DNA of 64,000 nucleotides. Source: Naegleria gruberi (taxonomy: Eukaryota). Positions 2,073 to 52,570 of the stretch are shown in pieces. The position numbers were made by a program, and so were the translations under genes. How positions within the stretch are numbered: position 1 is the stretch's first letter; the number at the start of each line of letters is the position of its first letter. The stretch lies in the NCBI GenBank assembly GCA_000004985.1, contig GG738927.1; one strand, 5' to 3'. The notes beneath the pieces were generated by a model that made no database searches, was not told the DNA's origin, and saw only the letters and a program-made list of their open reading frames with translations.

Positions 2073-2540
2073 TTAGATTCTAAAAAATTGTCTCTTTCCC
2101 ATCAGATAATAGGCCACAATTCTCGTACCTATCAGTGCAACCGAACCAAATGATGCAATCAAAAAGCCATAAAGTATGGAACCAATATAAAAAATCATGT
2201 GATACTTGTAGAACTCAGGTTCAACCGTACTGCATTCTTTTTGGTTGACTAAAGCAAACGAACATATACGAAGGACAATTGCAATCAGTATACAGCAATA
2301 ATTGAGGATATTAAAGATGGTAAAACCCTTCGTCGTTTGCTTTTTAACATGATATTCAAATGTCTCTGCATCCCATTCCTTGTCAACCTTCATGCACTTT
2401 TGTTTAATTGTTTCCTCTACAAAATGCATAATCTGATAAAGGGAAAATAACAGAAACTGAATGAGAAAAAGTATGGTGATTGTTTTGCACTGACACGATT
2501 CAGTATCATCCAAATGAAAGAAGAAAGCAATGATCAGCAC
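2073..2540 (-). CDS. Small multi-pass membrane protein, paralog A (3' exon). It is paralogous to 3939..4341 and shares the motifs DTESC, EFY and GK.EF.
   Basis: The 155 aa ORF has 3-4 hydrophobic helices. Motifs shared with the 3939..4331 ORF (DDTESCQC vs SDTESCKS; PEFY; MGKRQF vs VGKNEF) indicate paralogy. Confidence 0.45.
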   Translation of the reverse strand: MLIIAFFFHLDDTESCQCKTITILFLIQFLLFSLYQIMHFVEETIKQKCMKVDKEWDAETFEYHVKKQTTKGFTIFNILNYCCILIAIVLRICSFALVNQKECSTVEPEFYKYHMIFYIGSILYGFLIASFGSVALIGTRIVAYYLMGKRQFFRI

Positions 2541-2696
2541 TATAGTTTGTCAAAATTATTTGAAACTATATCCGAAACAAAAACACATACCTTCAACTAT
2601 TTTATAAAGCAAGGAAACCAAGTAAGCTAAAACGAGTCCTACTTTTGACAAACTATTGTGTTTTTATCTTCAACAAGTTATCGGAAAGTGAGAAAC

Positions 2697-2927
2697 TTAC
2701 ATTTTGGCAAGCAGAGTGGCGAGTTTACTTCTCTTCTCACTTTCGTTTTCTTGTTGAACAACTAAATTATTCTCAAGATTGTTGACAACCTTTTTTTCCA
2801 CATTTTCTCTTTTTTCGAAATTCTCATCATCAATTCCCAAATTCTCCTTGCTATTGTTGTGTGAAATCATATTTTTTTTAAAACGAATTTTTTTAAAAAA
2901 TGTCAATTGACTTGTCGTCATCCTCAA
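2697..2927 (-). CDS. Putative 5' exon of the paralog A membrane-protein gene.
   Basis: The ORF ends at a GTAAGT donor (AAAAT|GTAAGT). Its N-terminal peptide resembles the 5' exon of paralog B. The only canonical acceptor before 2540 gives a 1-nt frame mismatch, so paralog A may carry a frameshift or use a different acceptor. Confidence 0.3.
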   Translation of the reverse strand: MRMTTSQLTFFKKIRFKKNMISHNNSKENLGIDDENFEKRENVEKKVVNNLENNLVVQQENESEKRSKLATLLAKM

Positions 2928-3920
2928 AGAAGAAGCATCACGATGACATTTTAAACAAGTTTGGTCTCGATGTGAACATTACACTTGTTGGATCTGGTGG
3001 TTTTGGTTGTGTGTACAAGGTTGATGTGTCAGAAAATTGCTATGCCATAAAGGCAGTTGATTTTGTGGAGGATAATCAAATTTCGGAGAAACCAACAAGA
3101 AGTGAAGTGGTTATAGAAGCCATGAGAGATTTTAAACATGAGAGATTGTTGAATATTATGGAGAGGTTTGAAGTGGACTATACTTTGTACATGGTTTCGA
3201 ATTTTTGCAAATACGAAACATTGGAACAAATTGGAGGATATTTGAAACTAGATGAATACCATTGTTTGTTGATACTGAATCAATTACTGGAAGGTTTAGA
3301 ATATTTGCATTCCCAAAAACTCATACATAGGTTTGTTTTATAACTTAACCAAATATTGTAATATACGAAACAACCTAAACAGAGATATTAAACCTAGTAA
3401 TGTCCTAGTGGAATCAATAGATCCTACACGAGTTATTCTCGCAGATTTTGGGTTATTATTGCATGAGCATGGAAATAGAGCTGATCAAATGTGTGGTACC
3501 TTATACTATCTGCCTCCTGAAATTTCCCCAACAGGAGGAAAACGATTCACCTTCGCAGCTGATATTTATTCACTCGGATTGACCATAATTTCAATGATGG
3601 GAGTTCATATTCAGTTTCCAAGAACCTCACTTACTGTCAAAGGTCAAGTAATTCAGGGACTAAGGGAGAAATTAAGTAAGGCAACTATAGATATCCTATT
3701 GGATATGATTCATCCGTCACCTTCTCTCAGAGCTAACTTTTGCACAAACTTAAAAAAGAGAGTCAATCAAGTGATGAAAACTCTTGAAAACACTGAAAAT
3801 CTCTATCAGAATCGGCAAATGTATGAAGATATTGAGGAAACTGCCTTTTACAAAATTGGTTATTTCCTAAACGAAGTTGTGGATATTATAACCAATACCA
3901 AAACAGCAAATATTATTTAA
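2900..3920 (+). CDS. Ser/Thr protein kinase, paralog 1. Structure is join(2900..3330,3383..3920) with a 52-nt intron (GTTTGT...AACAG).
   Basis: Gly-loop GSGGFGCVYK, the VAIK-like motif AIKAV, catalytic loop HRDIKPSNVLV, and DFG (ILADFGLL). The intron splits the R codon of the HRD motif at exactly the same position as in paralog 2, and the frame is restored across it. Confidence 0.8.
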
Positions 3921-3938
3921 TCAATTATTACAAAAGAT

Positions 3939-4759
3939 TTATTTATATCTAGAGAATTCATTCTTTCCCACCATGAAATTGGCAACAACTCTCAACAGCA
4001 TGTAAACACAAACTGTACACAAATTGAATACTATGACATATACTAAAAAGGAGCAAGTATACGACAAGACATTCGAATAAAATTCTGGAACTTGACTAGT
4101 GTTTTGGCATTGAGAAACGAGTGCAATATTACATATTGTTAGAATAACGACTGGAACTATGTGTACAACATTACATGATCTGATACAACCGTACATTGAA
4201 TCATCACACACTTCACATTTGAAACATGATTTCATACAGACCAAGCAAGTGTTTAACAATAATGAAAATATGGAACATGACAAGATGATAGAAGAGATGG
4301 AATGTGATTTACATGATTCGGTATCACTCAACTGATTGTATCTATTATAGAGAACGCCTAAACTGTCAAGTTATTCAAATATTGCAGAATAAACTTACAT
4401 CCCCAAATGTTAAATGCCAAAATTGTGAAATAATCAAAGAGAAGGTATAATCTAAATATTCTATTGTGTAAATTGCCAAGTTAATAAAGAAAATCCAAAA
4501 CTTTGAAAACTCACATGGATCCTGCTTTTTTTCCAGTCGTGGTCTGAGATGAGATTTGTTCTTCAACAGTTTTTGGTTTAGCATTTGGAATCACAAGAAG
4601 CGAATTATCATTCCAAAGATCCGATACTTGTTCAGAATGTTCATTAGGGTGGAGAGCAACTAATGACATGTCATCAACATCATTGTGTGAATCCATTTTT
4701 TTGAGATGACTGTCAACTAAACTGTTGAAGAAATGCTTGTGGAAATAGACGTGGGACAT
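3939..4759 (-). CDS. Small multi-pass membrane protein, paralog B. Structure is join(3939..4341,4515..4759).
   Basis: The 5' exon ends in-frame at a GTGAGT donor. The acceptor CTATAATAG|A restores the frame into the 3939..4331 ORF (junction ...KKAGS-I-YNQLSDTESC...). The 3' exon encodes several transmembrane helices. Confidence 0.5.
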
Positions 4760-4796
4760 CTTTCACACACACTTTGTGTGAAACACTTATTAAAAA

Positions 4797-5922
4797 ATGG
4801 CTGACAACGATACAACATGTGATCAAATGATGATGGATTATTCATTTGGAGGTGGTCATATCAATTCAAATTTGCGAGGAAATTTACCCAACGATCAAAG
4901 AATTAGAATGAAACACATGAATGCCATCAATAACCATTATTACCTTTACAGTAATAATTCTAATACGAATTCTAATACTAATTCTAATAATGTAATAGAA
5001 CCTATAGGAGCAGGAGGATTCGGCACTGTCTACAAAACACAAATTCCCTTCGATAATACCATACACAATGTTGCCATTAAAGCAATTGAATTTGCAGAGG
5101 ATAATCCAAAGAGTGAAAGTGAAAAGCAAAAGCCAAGCAGAAGACAAGTAATGAAAGAGGCCAACAGAGTATTTGTGCATCCTCGACTTTTATATGTGAT
5201 GGATAGTTTTGAGGAGGATAAAACTCTCTATATTGTCTCGCCATTCTATGCAGGTGGAAGTTTGGAAAAGAATCAAGTAATAGAGGAGAGGTCATGTTTG
5301 ATAATTCTTGAACAGGTGTTGGAAGCTCTCGAGGTGTTACATGCCAATGATTACATTCATAGGTAGGTTTTGGTTTGGCAATCATGGAAACTAAACTAAT
5401 CTCAGAGATATTAAGCCTCACAATATTTTTGTCAGAAATTCGAATCCAATTGATGTTGTTCTTGGTGATTATGGACTGCTGAGATCTGTACACACCTTAA
5501 AAACAACAGGATTTTGTGGAACAAAATACTTTACAGCACCTGAAATTAAGGGAACAGATGTTTCAAGTTACACAAACAAATCAGATATTTACTCAACTGG
5601 TATGACAGCATTGAGATTATTGGGAGTTATTATTTCCGATCCAAGAACGACGACTACATTTAAAAGCCAAGTCGTCAATGGATTAGCATCTAGGAATGTT
5701 AGTAGGGAAACAACAGAGTTGATATTGCAAATGGTTCATCCAAACAGAAGAAAGAGGCCAAATGCCACACAAGCAAGACAACAAGTTCAACAAATTTATT
5801 TCATCTTGTTGCAACAATCGAATGATTTCTCTCCAGTTTCGCCAATTCAAACAACTAATAGTGGTAATTATGGAGGTTTTTTGCATGCTGTGTTGGACTC
5901 CTTTTCAGAACTTTTCTTTTAA
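4797..5922 (+). CDS. Ser/Thr protein kinase, paralog 2. Structure is join(4797..5362,5406..5922) with a 43-nt intron (GTAGGT...CTCAG). It has an N/S-rich N-terminal region.
   Basis: Gly-loop GAGGFGTVYK, AIKAI, HRDIKPHNIFV, a DYG variant of DFG (LGDYGLL), and APE (FTAPEIKG). The intron position and phase are identical to paralog 1. Confidence 0.8.
4950..4995 (+). repeat. Imperfect hexanucleotide microsatellite (AATTCTAATAC)n inside the kinase-2 coding region. It encodes an SNTNSNTNSN tract.
   Basis: Direct repeats of aattctaata(c/g) are seen in the sequence. Confidence 0.6.
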
Positions 5923-14207: not shown

Positions 14208-15490
14208 TTAGGATACAATGTTCAAATCAGTCAAATTTCCTTCTGTCAAATATTGTAGTAATCTTACTCTCATTTCTCTTTCTGTTTTCTTCACTATCCT
14301 CCCAAGTAAGAGAGAGGGCGAAATGAATGGTATTCGTACTGGAGAATTCTCTTCCTCCTCATCAAACACTCTCCCCAGTACACATTTCACTTCTTCCAAT
14401 TCTGTTGTGTTGATAATATGATGAATGAATCTTTGGATAATCAAAATCCAAATAATATGAAACGATTGAATTGACAGAATTTCTGATATGTGAATCAGAA
14501 ATAACTTCAAATTCAGGTCTCATTTTGAAATGAATTTCCCAAATTGACTGTAACTCCTTTCTGTAATTTCTTAATTAGAATATCTGGTTTGGTGAAGAGT
14601 ACTATTTTTCTTGTGTCCATTAATTCTGGAATACTGTTCATAAATTTAAACATCCTTTTGGTATCTTGAATTCTCAAAGTTTGCGAATCATCTTCAGCTA
14701 GATATTGATCTATCTCTGAAAGTGAGATCACCAAAAAGATTGTTTCTGGCATGGAAGCCAAAGACTGCATCCATGTTCTTCTTTCAGTTCTAGCCCCTCC
14801 CACATCCCTGAAATAGCCATACCTGAATTCAAATTGTTTGCTTGAATTTGTACATTCATAACACCACGTCAAAGGAAGAAAGCTTTCGTTTGGATTTTCA
14901 ATATTTTCCAAGAATTCTGGTAAATTTTCCAGCATTTGAAGGTTCAGTCTTGAATGTAAATTGATGCTATTTTTGTGTTCATTGCAATATTGTGAAATAT
15001 TTAAACTTATTTCATTCCATCTAATTTCGTATAATTCTCGCATATTTGGAATTTTCCAAACATGGATTAATAATTCACAAAAATCAAAATTAGAAACTTG
15101 TGGAAAGGAATCGAATAAATCCCAATCTTTTATCCTGATAATTTCCTCAATTTTATCCAAAGTCGATTCAAATCTCTCTAAAATCAACCCTTTCATTTGC
15201 TTTCTTTCACTTTCTTCCAAAATACTCCACAATTTTCCCATCATTGAACAACAAGCATACTGCAAATCATGCTCAAACTCTATTTTACTCGAATAAAACC
15301 ATTCCTTCCTCAAAATATGTTTTGCCAAATAATACAATGTTGATTTTCCACTATTGGCTGTTCCAAAAAGTGAGCAGCCCTCACCTATTTTTCTCCTAAT
15401 GGGTTGTTGTTGATTGGTTGCATCCGAAGGCAGTTGTTGCTGCTGATGATGATGATTATTTGGTATCGGATGTGATTGTTGTGCTCCCAT
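14208..15490 (-). CDS. Divergent heterotrimeric G-protein alpha-subunit-like protein. It starts at MGAQQS (ATG 15490). The 3' portion lies in a different frame below 14513.
   Basis: Motifs present are an N-terminal MG (myristoylation-type start), a P-loop FGTANSGKST, the DVGGAR(T)ERRTW switch II (the canonical form is DVGGQRSERKKW), and LFTKPDIL in place of NKKD. The downstream frame 14208..14510 encodes a G-alpha C-terminal-like segment (SEILSIQSF...FIHHIINTTEL, resembling AAYIQCQF...IYTHFTCATDT). Confidence 0.6.
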
Positions 15491-15693
15491 TTTTTTCTCT
15501 AAGGAAAAGTTCACCATCTTTTCTTTTCAATTTTTTGTAATTTTTGATATAGTTTACAATAAATAGCAGCTCATATATTAGCAATTATTGAGATCATTTT
15601 TGAACATTGTTGCATACTGGACGGAAACATAGAACAAATCGTTTCTTTTCCAATTCCAGTTCAGAAAAAATTGTCACAACCATAACCACCACC

Positions 15694-18973: not shown

Positions 18974-20200
18974 ATGCACAACATTAGCAGTCTAGACAAC
19001 AGCACTTCCTCTCCATTATTCGATTTGATATGGCAGAATAAGAATGCTTACTATGAGCATTTGGCACTCTCCAATAAACATCAACAAGCCAAGAAGGAAT
19101 CTACTAATTCCTCTGAAAAGGAGTCAATGAATGAAGAGGAAATTGATGAAACTCTCCGATATATTGAAAATCCGTATCTTGTTGTAGAAAACAAACCAGA
19201 CACACATTTCATGCTATTGGCAAAAAATCCAGAAACTGAAGAAGGACAAGTCATGACTTTCTATAATCAAATCCATATTAATCCAGACCTTAATGATGCT
19301 AACAAATTGGATGAAGAATTGAATGGATGTTTTGAAAAATCAGCCCAACTCAAAGTTCCAATAATTTGCAGTGTTCCAACAAACGCTAAAAACACCTCTC
19401 AGATAATGGATAAGTTAATTAATAAGGGGTTCATACCATCTGGTACTGGACCAGGAATGATTTTGAATTACTCTACATTTGATAAACAGAAAGCCAAAGA
19501 TGCACTGAAATCCAATTCTGAAAAGTTGGAAATTGGTGAATTGAAACAAGTGAATTGGATACACAGATATGACGATGAACACCCTGATAATATCATGTTG
19601 AGATTATGGTGTTATACTTTGGTTTCTTCATTTGGATTCTATTCTAAAGAGACAACTGCAAATCATTTCTATGAGGTGTTCAGACATGCTCGTTTTGGAC
19701 CAGAAGAATCTCTTAGAATGTTCTATGTACTCTATAGAGAAACTCCAGAATCTAAACCAAAAATGATTAGTGTAGCCACACTCTTCGTAGAAAAGGAGAA
19801 GAGTGTGTGTGGGCTCTACAATGTTGGTACTGTAAAGGATCCAGCTATTAGAAGGATGGGTTCTGCTCGATTATTGTCCTATCATGCAGTTTTTGAAATA
19901 GGACAGGAAGAACTCAATTTGAAATATTGTACCTTGCAATCTTCAAAGGCAGCATTCAATTTGTACAAGCAATTGGGATTTGAACACATTGGAGATTGGA
20001 ACATGATTGTATATCCAGATAATGTTCACTGGTTGTTAAATCTCTTACTCAAGTTGGTTTTGTTGAGATTTGCCATGCGTCTGTTGGGTGTGAGAGATCT
20101 TTCCGAGGGATCGGCTTGGAAAAAGTTGCTGGCCTTTGTAGTGCTGTGGTTCTCATTTTTGGTTACTGTCATATTTTGGGTAGCTCCTCAAATTCAATAA
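18974..20200 (+). CDS. Protein with a C-terminal GNAT-type N-acetyltransferase fold.
   Basis: A GNAT motif A-like segment (VKDPAIRRMGSARLL, i.e. R..G.A) and a motif B-like AFNLYKQLGFEHIG. The N-terminal two thirds is unassigned. Confidence 0.4.
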   Translation: MHNISSLDNSTSSPLFDLIWQNKNAYYEHLALSNKHQQAKKESTNSSEKESMNEEEIDETLRYIENPYLVVENKPDTHFMLLAKNPETEEGQVMTFYNQIHINPDLNDANKLDEELNGCFEKSAQLKVPIICSVPTNAKNTSQIMDKLINKGFIPSGTGPGMILNYSTFDKQKAKDALKSNSEKLEIGELKQVNWIHRYDDEHPDNIMLRLWCYTLVSSFGFYSKETTANHFYEVFRHARFGPEESLRMFYVLYRETPESKPKMISVATLFVEKEKSVCGLYNVGTVKDPAIRRMGSARLLSYHAVFEIGQEELNLKYCTLQSSKAAFNLYKQLGFEHIGDWNMIVYPDNVHWLLNLLLKLVLLRFAMRLLGVRDLSEGSAWKKLLAFVVLWFSFLVTVIFWVAPQIQ

Positions 20201-20205
20201 AATCC

Positions 20206-21594
20206 TCAATTTCCAGATAATTTCAACCATTTTCCTAATAATTGTTCCATGTTGACATTGTTATGTGTTGTTGATGATGATGAAGAGGAAATGTTTTGAT
20301 TAATGATATCATTTGTAGATGTAGAATCATTGTCTGTGAAAAAATAATTCAATGAGGATGCTACCATCAATTTGGAACAAGTTATTGCTCCTTTCATATT
20401 GGCTAGAGCTATCCTTTTGAATTTTTCATGTTCCAATCTAGTGGGATGATAATTTCTAGCAAAGCATTCAGATCTAACAATTTTTAAACAATGAACCATA
20501 TAAATCTGTAGAGAGCTAGCTTCAAATAGTTGAAAATCTTTACATTGATAAATATCCTTACTCTGATCGTATAGATAATTGAGACAGGAGGTAAGAGCAG
20601 TGGCAGTCAACTCAGAAGCTGAACCCACAAATATTTTTACACCTTCCTCTATAGCTTTAAATATTTGATGTGATTTTGGGTAAAACTTAGGATCAAACTC
20701 TGGTCTTGAAGTGCTACTCTTTTCCATCATTTCAATATTAAACAATTTGGTGATAAACTCGTGTTGTCCCTCCAAAATTAAATTATTTTCGGCTTGCTCT
20801 TCCATCAAATCCAATTCAAACTCCTCATCAAAATCTATTTCATCAATATCTACTTCATCCTTATCCTCTTCCTCATTAATAATCTCAACTCGGTCGAATA
20901 TTGTTTCACTCGTAACTGATTCTCCACTTTCACTAATTATATCATAAGTTACAGCTTGTTCATTACTAAGATCAGATATTTCTGAAATAGGTTGAGTAAT
21001 TAAGGTGAGTGATATCTCATGTTCGTCCCTCCAAATTATTTCCTTAAAATCCAAATCAATAATGGCTCTAAATTCTGTTGGGTCCACAGTTCCTTGTTTG
21101 GCCTTGTTCACAAATTCTTTACCATCCAAAAATTCCTTTTCAATATCACTTGCTCTCTCCTCAGCAATGACTTTGAAAGAAAATAAAAGTGTTGATGGTT
21201 TCAAATGGCACGGATAAAAAGCCTGTTTAAATTGTCTCATATAATTCGTGACATTCTTCAAGTAATCCTCAGTGCCAGCTCCTTCCACTCGCACAAAGAT
21301 CGGAGTTCTCTTCAAACTCTTAATCATGTGTGCCTTCTCACCAACAGAAAGCCTAGAGAAAAAGGAATTAAAATAATAATTTTCACGATATTTAACAATG
21401 ACTGTATCGGTGACTAGATGTTCTCGAGAAACCTTCTCCGATTTGATTTTTGTTTTTTCTCCCGATTTTACATTTAATGATGTTGTTGTTGTTGAAGAAG
21501 GAGTTGTTGTACTACTTCTCCTAGAAGAAGAGGCAGCATCAGCAGATGAAGAAGTTTTTCTTGCCTTCTTGCTCCTTGTGTTTTTTGTTCTCAT
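20206..21594 (-). CDS. Hypothetical nuclear-type protein, 462 aa, with an S/T-rich basic N-terminus and an acidic DE-rich middle.
   Basis: Long ORF with a proper ATG at 21594. No confident family. Confidence 0.35.
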   Translation of the reverse strand: MRTKNTRSKKARKTSSSADAASSSRRSSTTTPSSTTTTSLNVKSGEKTKIKSEKVSREHLVTDTVIVKYRENYYFNSFFSRLSVGEKAHMIKSLKRTPIFVRVEGAGTEDYLKNVTNYMRQFKQAFYPCHLKPSTLLFSFKVIAEERASDIEKEFLDGKEFVNKAKQGTVDPTEFRAIIDLDFKEIIWRDEHEISLTLITQPISEISDLSNEQAVTYDIISESGESVTSETIFDRVEIINEEEDKDEVDIDEIDFDEEFELDLMEEQAENNLILEGQHEFITKLFNIEMMEKSSTSRPEFDPKFYPKSHQIFKAIEEGVKIFVGSASELTATALTSCLNYLYDQSKDIYQCKDFQLFEASSLQIYMVHCLKIVRSECFARNYHPTRLEHEKFKRIALANMKGAITCSKLMVASSLNYFFTDNDSTSTNDIINQNISSSSSSTTHNNVNMEQLLGKWLKLSGN

Positions 21595-44321: not shown

Positions 44322-46676
44322 ATGAAAACAAGACAAATAACGCCGAGCCCTCTAACGATTTCATCATCTTCAAATCGTCCCGAAAAACATTCGAATAATA
44401 ACATTAAAACTTGCTGCTTTGGAAGAAACTTTAGTTTACGAGTGAAAACTACTTTCGTATTAATTATAATGTTTCTCGGATTGATGGCACTTTGTCTGGG
44501 GATTTTACTAGCTGCCTTTTTCGTGGTTTTTCAAAATGTGGAATATCAACAAGCTAAAGAAGCAAGTAAACGAGTTTCTCGAGCATTATTGGACGATTTG
44601 AATTATTTACAGTCAAAAGTATTCGAATTTGGAGCATTTGATGATACAGTTTCCGTCTATGAAAATCTCACTCAGGAAAATATTGGAAATTACACTGAAA
44701 TGTATTGGCACTGTGTTTATTTAAATAGTGTGAATGTGAATATGGCTTTTCTTTATTCGAAAGATGGAACTTTAATTACAAAAGTTCATTGCTTTAAGGG
44801 GCAAATGATAGAACAAGTTCCTGATGAGTTTTCAAGTTTGGAAAAGAATTCGTATGGAAATTTCTTTTTACAAGATATTGAAAATGTTTGGAGTAGGAAA
44901 TCTGGAATTTTAATTCCAAAAAAGACAATTTTTGAGATGGCAACTTCTGATGAATCGAGGAATTTCCTTTCGAGTTATGAATCGAATGTGACGAATATTG
45001 TGTTGGTAGCTGCAATGCCAGTGCAGAGTACAAATTATGATTATTCGAGAGGTTTAGTCTTGTTTGCCAAGTATCAATTGGATGAACATGCTTTGGATAT
45101 GGCTGAAAGAACTCAACTTTGCATGACCATGATGAATTTGAAAAACGAAACTGACCTCTATTCATTCAAGGAATCGATTGGATCGTTGGATACGAATGCA
45201 TTTTCGAGTGGAACTGATTGGAAAGTAACAAATATTACAACCTCATCCTATTTAACTGATTGGATTGATAACGAATCGTCGTTGGTTCAGTTTTTGGACT
45301 CGAGTGAAGAAAATTCAGTGAAATTGAATAATCGTCAATGTTGGAAAGATAATATGAATGATGAAAGTTCTGTTTCCTTCAATGCTGGATCTCCTACCGA
45401 TAGAATGGCTTCCTATCAAGCATTCTACACACTAGATGGAGAAAAGTCACTCATTATTCGATCCGATATTCCAAGAAAGACATTTCAAATAGGAATGGCA
45501 TCATTTCTAGTTGTTTGGTCAGTCATGACTTTTATGATTGTTGTCATGTCAATTGCCATTGTCTGTTTTGTGGAAATGATAGTTCTGAGAAGAGTCATCT
45601 CACTATCAAGTACTGTACAACGTGTGCACGACACTGTTAATTATGCAATTAGAGCTCCAAAACTAGGAAATGATGAACTAGGTCAATTATCCAAAGATCT
45701 TAACACCATGCTCGGAGAGATTGAACATGTGCAAAATCAACTCGAAAAGGACAATACAGTGATGCAGGATTTATTGGAGAAGACTGCTCTCGAAGAGGCC
45801 AAGAGTAGATGCGTCATGAATAGTATTGACGATTTCATTGTAACTGTTGACTGCTCAAATGGCATGCTTCTCAATATCAACCTCTCATTTGAGAGTAGAA
45901 TCTTGAGAAAACAGAGAGCTTCCGTAAATTTTGAAGCACTCCCCTTCAATCAAGCTGTCTTTGCCTATTTTAAGGAAATTCCATCATTGGAATTGCTTTT
46001 ACAAAAATTGGAAAATCTTGCCACGACTGGATCACATTGGGAAACTACCATTCTATCAGGATTTGGATTGAATATTCCAGTACATGTCACTGCTAAAAGA
46101 ATTAAGGTAATTATGGGTAAATTCACACGAGTGGATGCATACATGATTGTTGCCAGAAATTTGAGCGATCAAAACGAAATGAAACAAACCATCAAGAACA
46201 AACAAGATAAACTCGATGAAATGAAACAACATTCTGACTTTGACAGATACATGACAGATCCAATACTAAGACAACAATTTAAGGAATTTTGCACTAAGGA
46301 ACGAGCTGAGGAAAATGTCATCTTTTTGGAACAAGTAATGGAATATAAGAAATTATCAAGAACTCACGAAAGAGCCAAGAAACAAAAGGAAATTATTGAA
46401 ATGTTTCTTTCTGAAAATTCAGCAACACCAATCAATATTTCAAAACAAGTTTTTACAACAGAAGTGAAGAAAATTTTGGAAGGTTTTGGCCAATTACAAC
46501 TTTTTGATAATTTAGAAACAATTATTAAGAGTATGCTCATTTTGGATAAGTTTAAGAGATTTATTTCACAATTTGAAACAAGTCAAATGACGACCATTGA
46601 TACGGACAACATGTCTAGCTCAGGATCAATCGCATCAGATGCCAGTTATCAACACACTTTTACATCAACTGATTAA
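44322..46676 (+). CDS. Receptor-like membrane protein: TM, a ~340-aa extracellular sensor region, TM, HAMP, a PAS-like domain and an RGS domain.
   Basis: The HAMP sequence immediately follows TM2 (VLRRVISLSSTVQRVHDTVNYAIRAPKLGNDELGQLSKDLNTMLGEIE). The RGS-domain signature is ILRQQFKEFCTKERAEENVIFLEQVMEYKKL...IIEMFLSENSATPINIS....KKILE. Confidence 0.65.
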   Translation: MKTRQITPSPLTISSSSNRPEKHSNNNIKTCCFGRNFSLRVKTTFVLIIMFLGLMALCLGILLAAFFVVFQNVEYQQAKEASKRVSRALLDDLNYLQSKVFEFGAFDDTVSVYENLTQENIGNYTEMYWHCVYLNSVNVNMAFLYSKDGTLITKVHCFKGQMIEQVPDEFSSLEKNSYGNFFLQDIENVWSRKSGILIPKKTIFEMATSDESRNFLSSYESNVTNIVLVAAMPVQSTNYDYSRGLVLFAKYQLDEHALDMAERTQLCMTMMNLKNETDLYSFKESIGSLDTNAFSSGTDWKVTNITTSSYLTDWIDNESSLVQFLDSSEENSVKLNNRQCWKDNMNDESSVSFNAGSPTDRMASYQAFYTLDGEKSLIIRSDIPRKTFQIGMASFLVVWSVMTFMIVVMSIAIVCFVEMIVLRRVISLSSTVQRVHDTVNYAIRAPKLGNDELGQLSKDLNTMLGEIEHVQNQLEKDNTVMQDLLEKTALEEAKSRCVMNSIDDFIVTVDCSNGMLLNINLSFESRILRKQRASVNFEALPFNQAVFAYFKEIPSLELLLQKLENLATTGSHWETTILSGFGLNIPVHVTAKRIKVIMGKFTRVDAYMIVARNLSDQNEMKQTIKNKQDKLDEMKQHSDFDRYMTDPILRQQFKEFCTKERAEENVIFLEQVMEYKKLSRTHERAKKQKEIIEMFLSENSATPINISKQVFTTEVKKILEGFGQLQLFDNLETIIKSMLILDKFKRFISQFETSQMTTIDTDNMSSSGSIASDASYQHTFTSTD

Positions 46677-48399: not shown

Positions 48400-51300
48400 A
48401 TGTATTCAAACAACAACAAGTGTCATTGTGGTTTAATTGCCAAGCAAGGAACGACCTCGAAGGGAGAAAATCAGGGTAGAAAGTACACCTCCTGTTCTAA
48501 AAGTATGACTGATAAGAGTCGATGCAAATTCTTCAAGTGGTTAGATTCATCAGAACAAACAGCAACAACCAACATATCATCTTCTTCATCATCCTTCAAA
48601 AGCAATAGCAAATTACAGCACAGTGAGCAGGCTTTTGATGATACTTTGAACAAGACGATACAATTGATGAATAGAGTGCTTCCTTCTTCCTTGTTATCAT
48701 CAACAAGTGGTTCTTCTTCTTCATCATCAAATAACAAGTCTCCTTCCAACAACACTAATAGCCAGTGCTCATCTCTCACACTCTCACAATTGTGCTCCAG
48801 TATGGAAGACTTGAATATTGACAAAGATCTTTCAAAGCCTTCTTCTTCTCAAGCTATTGATAGAGACTTCATATTGAATGATAGTCTTTTTCCTTCTTCT
48901 TCTTCAGAAGCAAGCAAGAATAGTCTTCCTCTGATTGGAAACAATCAGCATAAAGGAGGAACATCATCTTCATCGTTACCAAATTCTCTCCTTGAAGAAT
49001 GTATGCAAAAGGAATTAAATAGCAAACAATTGGAGGCTGTCTGTGCTAGCGAACATGATTGTGTATGTGTTTATAGTGGACCGGGATCTGGTAAGACAAA
49101 GGTAAGTTGTTGTTATTATTGGATGGTAGAGGGAATTAATAATTAATTATTTGATGAATATTCATCTTGTGATGATGTGATGAATTTTTTTTTAATTTTT
49201 ATTTAATTTTTTTAAAAAATTCATAACGGTCATGGATCCAAATTTTAGACCATCACCAACAGGATTGCCTACTTGTGTATTGTTAAAGGAATTGAACCAA
49301 GGAATGTATTTGCCATGACTTTTACTAACAAGGCTGCTCAGGAGATGAAAACAAGACTTGTTCACCTTGTGAAATTGTACGATTTTCAAAAGAGAATTAA
49401 TGCAAAGGATTTCAGTCATATTGGAACGTTTCATGCAGTTTGTGCTAATATTTTGAGAAATGAGATGCATCATTTGACTCGTATTGTTGGATTGGATCAG
49501 AAATTTATGATATTTGATTCGGAAGAGCAGCTGTCATAATTAGGAGCTTGTACAAGTCATCAACTAATCATTCCATTAGAAGNNNNNNNNNNNNNNNNNN
49601 NNNNNNNNNNNNNNNNNNNNNNNNNNNNNNNNCTTTTAAAAAATTCGTAACGGTCATTGTAAACTTTGGGTGGATCCAAATTTTAGACCATCACCTACAG
49701 GATTGCCTACTTGTGTATTGTTAAAGGAATTGAACCAAGGAATGTATTTGCCATGACTTTTACTAACAAGGCTGCTCAGGAGATGAAAACAAGACTTGTT
49801 CACCTTGTGAAATTGTACGATTTTCAAATTAATGCAAAGGATTTCAAGACTTGTTCACCTTGTGAAATTGTACGATTTTCAAATTAATGCAAAGGATTTC
49901 AGTCATATTGGAACGTTTCATGCAGTTTGTGCTAATATTTTGAGAAATGAGATGCATCATTTGACTCGTCTTGTTGGATTGGATCAGAAATTTATGATAT
50001 TTGATTCGGAAGAGCAGCTGTCAATAATTAGGAGCTTGTACAAGTCATCAACTAATCATTTCATTAGAAGTTTACTTCCATTGAGTTTGTCTTTGGAGGA
50101 TATGGAGAAGAAACTCTCTCCAACTCTAGTTTTACAAACGATATCACGATGTAAGAATCAACAGGTTTCAGCTGATGAATATTCGAAAGCATTCCATCAA
50201 GAAATTGAGGAAACGGTCATTGCTGAACTATTTGTAGAATATCAACAGTATTTATCGAAACACAATGGGGTGGATTTTGATGATTTATTGCTTCATGTTG
50301 TGTACTTGTTTGAAAAATTCCCTCTAGTGAGAGAAAAGTATGCCAATCAATGTGAAGTATTATTGGTCGATGAATTTCAAGATATCAACAAGTTACAATA
50401 CAAGATTGCCATGCATTTGAACTCAAAGAGGAAGAACATCTTCTTGGTTGGTGATTCCGATCAAAACATTTACACTTTCAGATTCAGTGATAGCTCAATA
50501 ATGCGGGAAGTTATCAAAAAGTATGAGAAGGAGGGAAAGAGCATGAAAGTCATCATGATGAATGAAAACTATCGATCCACAAGAAGTATTGTCCAATTTT
50601 CAGACAAAATAATAGCTAGCAATTCTAACAGATTAAGAACTATCAGCTCTACCACTTCAAACACCACGGGTTTACCAGTTTCGATAGTCAGTTGCTCTGA
50701 TGAAGCCGAGTTCATTACAAATGAAATTGTAAAACTCACAAACATGAATAACAACATTCAATATTGCGACTTTGCAATCCTTATCAGAGTCAACTCTGCT
50801 TCTCGAGTATTCGAAGACATTTTTGATAGGAAAAAGTTGCCTTACAGAATTTTGAATTCCACAAGATTTTACGACTCTATGGAAGTGAAAGATATTCTTT
50901 CCTATGCAAAAGCTATTGCAAATCCAGATAATGATCACTTCCTGTTGAGCTGTGTGAATGTTCCAAGAAGATGCATCACTGAGGAGACAAAGTCCAAGTT
51001 GATAAAGCTTGCAGCTCAGAATAAGATGTCTCTGAGGTCAATTATCAAGAATCATAACAAGGAAATTGCTGGACATCTAGGAGCCAATGAGTTACAAACA
51101 CTCATTTCCACAATAGATTTTATCGAAAAGTCTCAAATTAATCTTCATTCTCCTTCAACTATTATGCAAGATATTATTCGGGTGATTGATTATGAATCCT
51201 ACTTGAAATTCACACAGAAGAATATGTTCGAAACAAGATGGGAGAATTTGAAAGAGTTAATTAACATGTGTCAAGAATTTGAGTCCAAATCAACCATTCC

Positions 51301-52570
51301 CTCAATTTCATCATTTTTACAAAGCATTTCAATTTCCACAGAGATGGAACCAATTTCAAAAGATTCATCAAATTCCATTACAATTTCCACAATCCATGCA
51401 GCCAAAGGTTTAGAATTTGGAATTGTATTTGTGGCAGGAGTTGAGAAGGGAAATATTCCATACTACAAAGCTCAGGAAAAGAATGAAATAGAGGAAGAGA
51501 GAAGATTACTGTTCGTTGCCTGTACAAGGGCTCAGTCCTTACTCTGTTTAACCAATTCCAAAACAAGATTCAGACTTGGAAAGAGTTACAACACTCAGAG
51601 TTCTGAGTTTTTGAGCATAATTCTCTCTAATCAATTCACATTCTATTCTAATTCATCATTAGCGACTCTATTGAGTGATAATTCCATATCTCAATTAAGA
51701 TATGAGACTATTAATCATTTAGTAGCTTGCAGAGACAAGAAATCTAAACAAAATCTTTCTTCCTCCTCGGATATTCTGACAAAAGATCTGAAACGAGTTA
51801 AAAATATGGAAAGTTTCGAACCTACAACCGAATCAAGCAACGTTCCAGAATATTGGTTCAATAAGGAACGATTCAAGATTGTGGACGTAACAGATACTAT
51901 GAAATTAACCATTCAAGACTTGATGGATAATTCATGTGAAAAGAAAACTCTTGGAAGTGGAAAGGATCAAACGTATTTCAAGAAACAATACACTCAATTG
52001 GAAGTTATCAAAGTGGAACGAGTTGAAAATCCAAATCTCTACGGATTATATCAAGCCAAACAATCTCAAATGAAATCTTTCAAGGATAATCCCCAACCCA
52101 TCCCAGTCAAAACTGTGGAAAAAGTTCCACCCAACTCAACAGCCAAAACCTGGATTCAAAGTGTAAAATTATGCCAACAAGTTAATGAAAAATTCTTTTG
52201 GCACGGCACTGATTCACAAGTTGTGAGCATTATTTGTGAACATGGTTTAGATGCAAGAGTGAGCTCACTTTCTGGACTATTCGGTGCAGGAATTTATTTT
52301 GCAGAATATTGTTCCAAGAGTGATCAATACTGCTCGCCAACGAATGATCTTTTTCACATGTTTCTCTGTCGAGTCATGATTGGTAATCAAATTGAAACTC
52401 TTGAAAAGGGAAAATCTCTCAATAATATTCGAAGACCAAGTGTCATTCCAAACACCAATGGACGAACATTTGATAGTATTCTAGGAAAACCAAACATGTA
52501 CAAGGAATTTGTAGTTTACGATAGTTGCCAATGCTATCCAGAATTTCTAATTACTTATAAAAGGAAATAA
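48400..52570 (+). CDS. Three-domain fusion: zf-GRF zinc finger + UvrD/Rep-type SF1 DNA helicase + C-terminal PARP catalytic domain with an H-Y-E triad. Exon 1 is 48400..49101 and exon 2 begins at 49249 (copy A) or 49687 (copy B). The coding sequence is interrupted by a scaffold gap and a duplicated, misassembled block, then is continuous from 49832 to 52570.
   Basis: The zf-GRF pattern is [27 protein letters not shown]...CKFFKWLD. Walker A is SGPGSGKTK, followed by GTAAGT (49102). The helicase motifs are Ia [49 protein letters not shown], and [19 protein letters not shown]...[13 protein letters not shown]. The PARP segment reads [47 protein letters not shown] (compared with PARP1 LLWHGSR...[21 protein letters not shown]), then [11 protein letters not shown] (PARP1 LLGEVALGNMYE) and [19 protein letters not shown]. 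Confidence 0.75.
49192..50060. repeat. Near-identical duplicated block flanking the gap (about 49192-49582 vs 49633-50060), plus a tandem 55-bp internal duplication (49792-49846 and 49847-49901). This is most likely an assembly or haplotype artefact inside the helicase gene.
   Basis: The copies differ by a 1-nt indel (ctgtcataatt vs ctgtcaataatt), a 6-nt indel (caaaagagaatt vs caaattaat), and one substitution (TITNR vs TITYR). The 55-bp unit is not a multiple of 3, so it breaks the frame. Confidence 0.7.
49583..49632. other. Scaffold/assembly gap, a run of 50 N.
   Basis: Seen directly in the sequence. Confidence 0.98.

What the first reader, a model, noticed from the sequence alone, without database searches (positions are those of the whole stretch)
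2073..5922. Tandem duplication of a head-to-head gene pair: a Ser/Thr kinase on + and a small multi-pass membrane protein on -
The unit repeats twice, each as a two-exon membrane-protein gene (5' exon plus TM exon) on the minus strand and a kinase with one intron on the plus strand. The kinases share an identical intron position and phase, inside the HRD arginine codon. The membrane-protein paralogs share the DTESC, PEFY and GK.EF motifs and similar 5' exons. In both copies the 5' ends of the two genes are only about 0-40 bp apart on opposite strands (2927 vs 2900; 4759 vs 4797). This implies a tiny bidirectional promoter or overlapping 5' UTRs that were preserved through duplication. That suggests functional coupling, a kinase-membrane partner module, rather than chance adjacency. 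Paralog A of the membrane gene shows a 1-nt frame inconsistency at its only canonical acceptor, so it may be decaying.
Basis: seen in the sequence. Interest (0 to 1): 0.55.

Follow-up and report, generated by a model that had tools for sequence, protein, structure and literature searches.

The report
Duplicated kinase / membrane-protein gene pair, Naegleria
In the amoeba Naegleria gruberi, a back-to-back pair of genes (a soluble protein kinase and a small four-helix membrane protein with no known relatives) was duplicated in tandem long ago and all four genes are still intact; this is a tidy but fairly ordinary genomic feature, and the idea that kinase and membrane protein work together remains an untested hypothesis.

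Summary
Window 2073-5922 holds two tandem copies of a head-to-head unit: a small membrane-protein gene on the minus strand and a Ser/Thr kinase gene on the plus strand. The window is Naegleria gruberi.

- **Kinases:** my two models equal the annotated proteins XP_002669398.1 and XP_002669399.1. They are 41% identical and share one intron in the HRD arginine codon, phase 2.
- **Membrane genes:** each has three exons, not two. A 62-nt middle exon encodes the first TM helix, so the reported "1-nt frame inconsistency" disappears and paralog A is intact.
- **Homology:** the two membrane proteins are true homologs (Smith-Waterman z of 10 or more, identical intron positions and phases). They have four TM segments, no Pfam or PDB match, and no relative among 1.84 billion protein representatives except a fragment from a 97%-identical sister strain. 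They appear to be unannotated.
- **Sister-strain contigs:** exon indels are all multiples of 3, all other indels lie in introns or the intergenic region, and pN/pS is 0.08-0.41 for the four genes.
- **Spacing:** start codons are 29 bp (unit A) and 100 bp (unit B) apart. Six other divergent ORF pairs in the window are 493-854 bp apart.

Shared regulation is plausible. A physical kinase-membrane partnership is only inferred, and I found the pairing nowhere else. Interest is modest.

The parts
2073..2539 (-). Membrane protein A (mA), exon 3 including the stop codon: TM2-TM4 with the DTESC, CMK, PEFY and GK..F.R motifs
   Evidence: 155-codon ORF. In-frame splice model. 97% identical in sister-strain contig L001 with no indel. 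P(open for 154 codons or more) about 1e-5.
2540..2590 (-). mA intron 2 (51 nt, GTATGT..TAG, phase 1)
   Evidence: The sister strain has a 2-bp insertion here, which would frameshift if this stretch were coding.
2591..2652 (-). mA exon 2 (62 nt): TM1.
   Evidence: Restores the reading frame. 100% conserved in the sister strain. Same length and phases as mB exon 2.
2653..2700 (-). mA intron 1 (48 nt, GTAAGT..TAG, phase 2)
   Evidence: Carries in-frame stops if retained.
2701..2870 (-). mA exon 1: hydrophilic cytosolic N-terminus (MISHNN...). An in-frame upstream ATG at 2921 cannot be excluded.
   Evidence: The sister strain has an in-frame 3-bp deletion here. Start context AAAAAAATATG is homologous to that of mB.
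2871..2899 (.). Unit A head-to-head spacer: 29 bp of A/T runs (ATTTTTTTTAAAACGAATTTTTTTAAAAA) between the two start codons
   Evidence: One substitution and no indel in the sister strain.
2900..3330 (+). Kinase A exon 1 (G-loop, VAIK, alpha-C, up to the H of HRD)
   Evidence: The spliced product equals XP_002669398.1 / NAEGRDRAFT_75663. Pkinase E 5.9e-42.
3331..3382 (+). Kinase A intron (52 nt, GT..AG, phase 2 inside the HRD Arg codon)
   Evidence: 4-bp insertion in the sister strain.
3383..3920 (+). Kinase A exon 2 including the stop codon (HRD Asp, DFG, PPE, C-terminal tail with the G.FL..V.D motif)
3921..3938 (.). 18-bp tail-to-tail junction between the kinase A stop and the mB stop; this is the boundary of the two units
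3939..4357 (-). Membrane protein B (mB), exon 3 including the stop codon: TM2-TM4, the same motifs, and a Cys-rich TM2-TM3 loop
   Evidence: pN/pS 0.08 for mB against the sister strain.
4358..4398 (-). mB intron 2 (41 nt, GTAAGT..TAG, phase 1)
   Evidence: 3-bp insertion in the sister strain.
4399..4460 (-). mB exon 2 (62 nt): TM1
   Evidence: Same length and phases as mA exon 2.
4461..4514 (-). mB intron 1 (54 nt, GTGAGT..TAG, phase 2)
4515..4696 (-). mB exon 1: hydrophilic N-terminus starting MDSHND
   Evidence: The upstream in-frame extension to 4759 is broken by a 5-bp indel in the sister strain.
4697..4796 (.). Unit B head-to-head spacer, 100 bp (79 bp in the sister strain). Contains a 9-nt-arm palindrome TTTCACACA..TGTGTGAAA that is partly removed by a 16-bp deletion in the sister strain.
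4797..5362 (+). Kinase B exon 1 (N-terminal NSNTNSN repeat, G-loop, VAIK, up to the H of HRD)
   Evidence: The spliced product equals XP_002669399.1 / NAEGRDRAFT_75664. Sister-strain indels of 3 and 12 bp are in frame.
5363..5405 (+). Kinase B intron (43 nt, phase 2 in the HRD Arg codon)
5406..5922 (+). Kinase B exon 2 including the stop codon (HRD Asp, DYG, APE, C-terminal G.FL..V.D motif)

Best explanation
This is an ancient tandem duplication, in Naegleria gruberi, of a compact cassette of about 1.9 kb with two genes. One gene, on the minus strand, has three exons and encodes a 220-232 aa protein with four TM segments, cytosolic N- and C-termini, and two short outward-facing loops carrying the conserved DTESC and PEFY motifs. 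The other, on the plus strand and transcribed divergently, has two exons and encodes a soluble Ser/Thr protein kinase with all catalytic motifs.

Shown:
- All four genes are intact.
- The paralogs have diverged to 41% (kinases) and about 28% (membrane proteins) identity while keeping every intron position and phase.
- Comparison with a 96-98% identical sister strain indicates purifying selection on all four genes.

Inferred:
- The start codons are only 29 and 100 bp apart, so each pair must share a minimal bidirectional promoter or have overlapping 5' transcript ends. The two genes are therefore most likely co-expressed.
- More speculatively, the membrane protein acts as a membrane anchor, regulatory subunit or substrate for its neighbouring kinase, making a 'split receptor-kinase' arrangement.

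My sub-probabilities are: duplication of a two-gene block 0.97; membrane genes are real protein-coding genes 0.9; shared promoter region and co-expression 0.55; direct functional partnership 0.3.
For: - **Gene models and frames:**
- **Kinase identity:** the models equal the annotated N. gruberi proteins.
- **Paralogy:** kinases 41% identical, E 5e-66; membrane proteins E 1e-8 and 0 of 2000 shuffles reaching the observed score. Intron positions and phases are identical, and the middle exon is 62 nt in both.
- **Old duplication:** only two short collinear DNA patches remain.
- **Sister-strain contigs L001-L003:** every exon indel is a multiple of 3 (3, 3, 12 bp). The 2-, 4-, 5- and 16-bp indels lie in predicted introns or the spacer. 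pN/pS is 0.17, 0.17, 0.41 and 0.08 for kA, kB, mA and mB.
- **Topology:** four hydrophobic segments in mA and mB, with charge distribution consistent with N-in/C-in. The kinases have no TM segment.
- **Catalytic motifs:** G-loop, VAIK, HRD, DFG/DYG and APE are present.
- **Spacing:** 29 and 100 bp, against 493-854 bp for six other divergent ORF pairs in the same window.
Against: - Functional coupling has no independent support. A block duplication copies gene order and spacing automatically.
- The membrane family has no detectable relative anywhere else, so conservation of the pairing across species could not be tested.
- None of the 80 distant kinase loci from metagenomes carries a related membrane ORF.
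- Spacer B is not strongly conserved: it has 5- and 16-bp deletions in the sister strain.
- No transcript, proteomic or interaction data could be examined.
- The pN/pS values rest on 13-23 substitutions per gene.
- The spacing comparison uses only six ORF pairs and crude ORF-based starts.
Confidence: 0.5

Rival explanations
1. The duplication and all four genes are real, but the kinase and the membrane protein are functionally unrelated neighbours. They were copied together only because they were adjacent in a very compact stretch. The tight spacing reflects genome compaction and overlapping transcription units, not shared regulation or partnership.
For: The whole 3.85-kb block is about 96% genic, with an 18-bp tail-to-tail junction. 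Elsewhere in the window, convergent ORFs lie only 5 bp apart. The pairing was not found anywhere else. Spacer B tolerates 21 bp of deletions between strains.
Against: Both copies of both genes have stayed intact and constrained over a divergence deep enough to erase DNA similarity. That is less expected if one gene were an irrelevant passenger. The head-to-head spacing is 5-30 times shorter than in the six other divergent ORF pairs of the window.
Confidence: 0.42
2. The minus-strand ORFs are not protein-coding. They would be chance ORFs or exons of antisense or non-coding RNAs next to two genuine kinase genes.
For: There is no annotated protein and no homolog in 1.84 billion representatives. 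There is no Pfam, PDB or fold match. The AlphaFold confidence is low (pLDDT 62.8).
Against: ORFs of 138-154 codons have a chance probability of about 1e-5 to 3e-5 at this composition. The two products are significantly similar, with conserved motifs and four TM segments each. Both have canonical GT..AG introns at identical positions and phases. Indels between strains respect the reading frame in exons only. mB has 10 synonymous against 3 non-synonymous differences.
Confidence: 0.05
3. Membrane paralog A is a decaying pseudogene.
For: mA also has the highest pN/pS of the four genes (0.41).
Against: With the 62-nt middle exon, the mA reading frame is intact over 232 codons. The sister strain keeps it intact, with only one in-frame 3-bp indel and a fully conserved exon 2. 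A pN/pS of 0.41 is still below 1.
Confidence: 0.03

Closest known systems
Eukaryotic protein kinase superfamily (Pfam PF00069 Pkinase), unclassified 'Other'-type Ser/Thr kinases
   Same: Both kinases match Pkinase at E 1e-39 to 1e-42 and carry the G-loop, VAIK, HRDxKPxN, DFG/DYG and APE motifs.
   Different: They have no specific subfamily. PKR, MELK, Aurora and SLK all score about 1e-20, and the best database relatives are only about 30% identical. There are no accessory domains. The two share a C-terminal G.FL..V.D motif found only in this pair.
Head-to-head (divergent) gene pairs driven by bidirectional promoters in compact eukaryotic genomes
   Same: Opposite-strand genes have start codons 29 and 100 bp apart, and the arrangement is kept in both paralogous units.
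   Different: Transcription start sites and co-expression are not known here. The spacing is far smaller than for the other divergent pairs in this window. At 29 bp, at least one promoter or 5' UTR must overlap the partner gene.
Small four-TM membrane proteins with cytosolic termini (tetraspanins, MARVEL-domain proteins, claudin/PMP22, MS4A/CD20)
   Same: Predicted topology: four TM segments, N- and C-termini inside, and two extracytoplasmic loops with conserved Cys.
   Different: There is no sequence match to any of these Pfam families at E of 1 or less. Both outer loops are short (about 10-16 aa). There is no tetraspanin CCG motif and no claudin W-GLW-C-C motif. The resemblance is topological only.
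Yeast Sho1-type arrangement (a four-TM membrane protein that recruits a soluble kinase), from general knowledge
   Same: It is a functional analogy for the hypothesised membrane anchor plus soluble kinase.
   Different: mA and mB have no SH3 or other recognisable docking domain. No interaction is shown. There is no homology.

Membership tests
Eukaryotic protein kinase (ePK) superfamily, catalytically competent | Pkinase domain with Gly-rich loop, VAIK lysine, HRD catalytic loop, DFG and APE motifs | tested here: met
   Pfam PF00069 at E 5.9e-42 (kA) and 3e-39 (kB). Motifs found at the expected positions; kB has DYG for DFG and kA has PPE for APE.
Receptor (transmembrane) protein kinase | TM segment and extracellular domain in the same polypeptide as the kinase domain | tested here: not met
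   The maximum 19-residue Kyte-Doolittle hydropathy is 1.42 (kA) and 1.11 (kB), both inside the kinase core, so there is no TM segment. Pfam finds no extra domains.
Tandem segmental duplication of a two-gene block | Adjacent collinear copies with the same gene order and orientation, each gene homologous to its counterpart, and shared intron positions | tested here: met
   The units 2073-3920 and 3939-5922 are 18 bp apart. Kinases E 5e-66 and membrane proteins E 1e-8. Three of three intron positions and phases are shared. There are no other copies in the window.
Bidirectional-promoter gene pair | Divergent transcription start sites less than 1 kb apart, with co-regulated transcripts | not testable with these tools
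   Start codons are 29 and 100 bp apart, so the 5' ends must be close or overlapping. TSS positions and co-expression need RNA data.
Tetraspanin (PF00335) | Four TM segments plus a large EC2 loop with a CCG motif; Pfam match | tested here: not met
   No Pfam hit at E of 1 or less. The second outer loop is about 16 residues and has no CCG.
MARVEL (PF01284), claudin/PMP22 (PF00822), MS4A/CD20 (PF04103) four-TM families | Significant match to the family profile | tested here: not met
   hmmscan against Pfam-A at E of 1 or less returned only two sub-threshold unrelated hits (DUF2207_C at 0.24, Ribophorin_II_C at 0.059). The PDB profile search returned nothing at E of 10 or less.
Processed or decaying pseudogene (membrane paralog A) | Frameshifts or premature stops, and relaxed constraint (pN/pS near 1) | tested here: not met
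   The three-exon reading frame is intact over 232 codons. The sister-strain copy is intact with only an in-frame indel. pN/pS is 0.41.

The most novel reading that the evidence does not exclude
mA and mB define a Naegleria-specific family of four-TM proteins, missing from the current annotation. Each would be the dedicated membrane partner (sensor, anchor or substrate) of the kinase encoded 29-100 bp away on the other strand. That would make a 'split receptor kinase' cassette whose stoichiometric co-expression is hard-wired by a minimal bidirectional promoter and which has been duplicated as a unit.
Probability: 0.25. Interest if true: 0.5.

Novelty: new member of a known kind. Interest (0 to 1): 0.3.

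Why it matters
If the pairing is functional, it would be a simple, genetically hard-wired way for a free-living amoeba to build a membrane-linked kinase signalling unit from two polypeptides. It would also add an unannotated, lineage-specific membrane-protein family to the Naegleria gene set.

On a practical level, the result shows that the N. gruberi reference annotation apparently misses small multi-exon genes sitting between annotated ones. It also gives exact exon coordinates for two of them.

Otherwise this is an ordinary example of an old tandem duplication in a compact protist genome.

Tried and rejected
rejected. The frame closes only with a 62-nt middle exon.
- **Upstream starts at 2927/2921 and 4759:** the 4759 extension is frameshifted by a 5-bp indel in the sister strain. 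2921 remains possible but is less likely by homology.
- **Word-indexed homolog search with mA:** only an ENA fragment was returned.
- **Word-indexed homolog search with kA:** it returned only kinases about 30% identical and missed kA's own cluster (compare). Negative results from that tool are therefore unreliable, and the orphan claim rests on the exhaustive search.
- **P0064 from the exhaustive search:** spurious (hhalign probability 1.4%).
- **Exact look-ups:** 13 alternative membrane-gene models were not in the collection.
- **Context look-ups for neighbouring ORFs and the G-alpha protein:** not on record.
- **Structure:** the AlphaFold model has pLDDT 62.8, and its Foldseek search gave nothing better than E = 1.1. 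The fold remains unassigned.
- **Metagenome scan for the kinase pair:** 80 generic kinase loci, none with a membrane-protein relative.
- **Literature:** nothing on the locus tags, the ENA project, or Naegleria bidirectional promoters.
- **Third degenerate copy in the window:** none.
Full report
**Organism and setting.** The window is a 34% GC, gene-dense eukaryotic sequence with short GT..AG introns. Its ORFs carry F-box, BTB, RGS, G-alpha, DUF4116, SAPS, ERCC1 and UvrD-PARP domains. The G-alpha ORF at 14513-15517 is 100% identical to a predicted protein of Naegleria gruberi. Exact look-ups place several window proteins on one 174,313-bp N. gruberi scaffold.

**Kinase genes.** Splicing 2900-3330 to 3383-3920 gives a 322-aa protein (kA). 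Splicing 4797-5362 to 5406-5922 gives a 360-aa protein (kB).
- These are exactly XP_002669398.1 (NAEGRDRAFT_75663) and XP_002669399.1 (NAEGRDRAFT_75664).
- The proteins are 41% identical (E 5e-66) and match Pfam Pkinase.
- They keep the G-loop, VAIK, HRDIKPxN, DFG (DYG in kB) and APE (PPE in kA) motifs, and they have no TM segment.
- They belong to no recognisable subfamily. PKR, MELK, Aurora and SLK all score about 1e-20, and database relatives are only about 30% identical.
- The two share a C-terminal G.FL..V.D motif.

**Membrane-protein genes.** Reading the minus strand shows three exons in each copy, not two.
- mA: 2870-2701, 2652-2591 and 2539-2073, giving 232 aa with introns of 48 and 51 nt.
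- mB: 4696-4515, 4460-4399 and 4357-3939, giving 220 aa with introns of 54 and 41 nt.
- All four introns start GT[AG][AT]GT and end TAG. Three of them contain TAACTTG.
- In both genes the first intron is phase 2 inside an Ile codon, the middle exon is 62 nt and encodes the first TM helix, and the second intron is phase 1.
- With the middle exon, mA is fully in frame.

**Homology of the membrane proteins.**
- blastp gives E 1e-8 over the C-terminal 72 residues.
- The Smith-Waterman score is 127, against 36 +/- 6 for global shuffles and 42 +/- 8 for shuffles within 10-residue windows that keep the TM/loop layout. None of 2000 shuffles reaches the observed score in either control.
- Invariant motifs are DTESC, CMK, PEFY and GK..F.R.
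- The exon-1 N-termini are not significantly similar (score 23 against 25 +/- 4.7), apart from the shared start MISHNN / MDSHND.
- Each protein has four hydrophobic segments. The charge distribution fits cytosolic N- and C-termini, with DTESC and PEFY facing outward.
- mB has 15 Cys, including a CMKSCFKCEVCDDSMYGCIRSC cluster in the cytosolic loop.

**Are the membrane genes real?**
- Open frames of 138-154 codons have a chance probability of about 1e-5 to 3e-5 at this composition.
- Three contigs from one ENA metagenome (ERZ929261) are 96-97.6% identical to the window and cover almost the whole locus.
- Between the two strains, every indel inside a predicted exon is a multiple of three: 3 bp in mA exon 1, and 3 and 12 bp in kB exon 1.
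- The 2-bp, 4-bp, 5-bp and 16-bp indels lie in mA intron 2, the kA intron and spacer B. mB intron 2 carries a 3-bp indel.
- mA exon 2 is 100% conserved.
- pN/pS is 0.17 (kA), 0.17 (kB), 0.41 (mA) and 0.08 (mB), from 13-23 substitutions each.
- The 5-bp indel at 4719-4723 frameshifts the in-frame extension up to 4759. The mB start is therefore the ATG at 4696, which is homologous to the mA ATG at 2870; both are preceded by an A-run.

**Distribution.**
- An exhaustive HMMER search with the exon-3 profile against 1.84 billion representatives found only the sister-strain fragment P0001 and one spurious hit.
- Pfam, the PDB sequence profile search and Foldseek on a low-confidence model (pLDDT 62.8) gave nothing.
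- Thirteen alternative gene models are absent from the protein collection. mB is certainly unannotated there, and mA very probably is.
- A metagenome scan with the kinase alignment returned 80 loci at 24-40% identity. None carries a relative of the membrane protein.
- No paper mentions these loci.

**Architecture and spacing.**
- The units occupy 2073-3920 and 3939-5922 and are separated by 18 bp.
- DNA similarity between them is limited to two short collinear patches: the VAIK..EDN region of the kinases, and the 3' end of the membrane genes. The duplication is therefore old.
- Start codons are 29 bp apart in unit A (2871-2899, an A/T-run sequence with one substitution between strains). In unit B they are 100 bp apart (79 bp in the sister strain).
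- Six other divergent ORF pairs in the window are 493-854 bp apart.
- At 29 bp, promoters or 5' UTRs must overlap each other or the partner's coding sequence.

**Interpretation.** The structural part of the finding is solid. What remains inferred is function.
- Shared regulation is plausible from the spacing.
- Retention of all four genes under constraint after deep divergence is mildly suggestive of a paired function.
- Against that, a block duplication preserves arrangement by itself, the pairing was found nowhere else, and no expression or interaction data were available.
- I therefore rate co-regulation at about 0.55 and a direct kinase-membrane partnership at about 0.3. The main rival, functionally unrelated neighbours in a compact region, is nearly as likely.

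**Verdict.** This is a correctly spotted, old tandem duplication of a head-to-head kinase/four-TM gene pair in N. gruberi. The kinases are already annotated. The membrane genes are apparently unannotated members of an orphan family, and paralog A is not decaying. The finding is of modest interest: it is a useful annotation correction and a testable hypothesis, not a new kind of system.

Noticed in passing
window 2073-2870 and 3939-4696 (minus strand): Two three-exon genes for small four-TM proteins appear to be missing from the N. gruberi reference proteome. Neither my models nor 10 alternatives are in the 15-billion-protein collection, and mB has no match in the exhaustive search.
   Followed up: yes
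L001, L002, L003 (ENA ERZ929261 / ERR1078381, PRJEB11402): An environmental metagenome contains contigs 96-97.6% identical to this N. gruberi locus, so a sister strain or species is present. I could not find what the project is.
   Followed up: partly
window 4750-4790: A palindrome TTTCACACA-CACTT-TGTGTGAAA lies in spacer B. The motif TGTGTGAA also overlaps the start-codon region of both membrane genes (2858-2866, 4683-4690). The palindrome is partly removed by a 16-bp deletion in the sister strain, so it is probably not essential.
   Followed up: partly
window 4950-4985 (kinase B N-terminus): An AATTCT-type microsatellite encodes NSNTNSNTNSN. Its length varies between strains (12-bp insertion in L002).
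   Followed up: no
window 4230-4300 (mB residues about 119-143): mB has a Cys-rich cytosolic loop, CMKSCFKCEVCDDSMYGCIRSC (15 Cys in 220 aa), that is absent from mA. It could be a metal-binding or palmitoylation cluster acquired after the duplication.
   Followed up: no
window 49832-52570 (+): A 912-aa ORF fuses a UvrD/REP-type helicase (N- and C-terminal domains) to a C-terminal PARP catalytic domain, which is an unusual architecture.
   Followed up: no
window 18974-20200 (+) and 20206-21594 (-): Two convergent ORFs of more than 400 aa, both without a Pfam match, end only 5 bp apart, so their 3' UTRs must overlap.
   Followed up: no
window 14513-15517 (-) and 44322-46676 (+): A G-alpha subunit gene and an RGS-domain gene lie in the same 64-kb window as the kinase pairs. 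Many other ORFs of more than 350 aa in the window have no Pfam domain.
   Followed up: no
one search compared (tool behaviour): The word-indexed homolog search with kinase A did not return its own cluster (representative P0059) or kinase B's cluster. Negative results from that search should not be taken as absence.
   Followed up: partly
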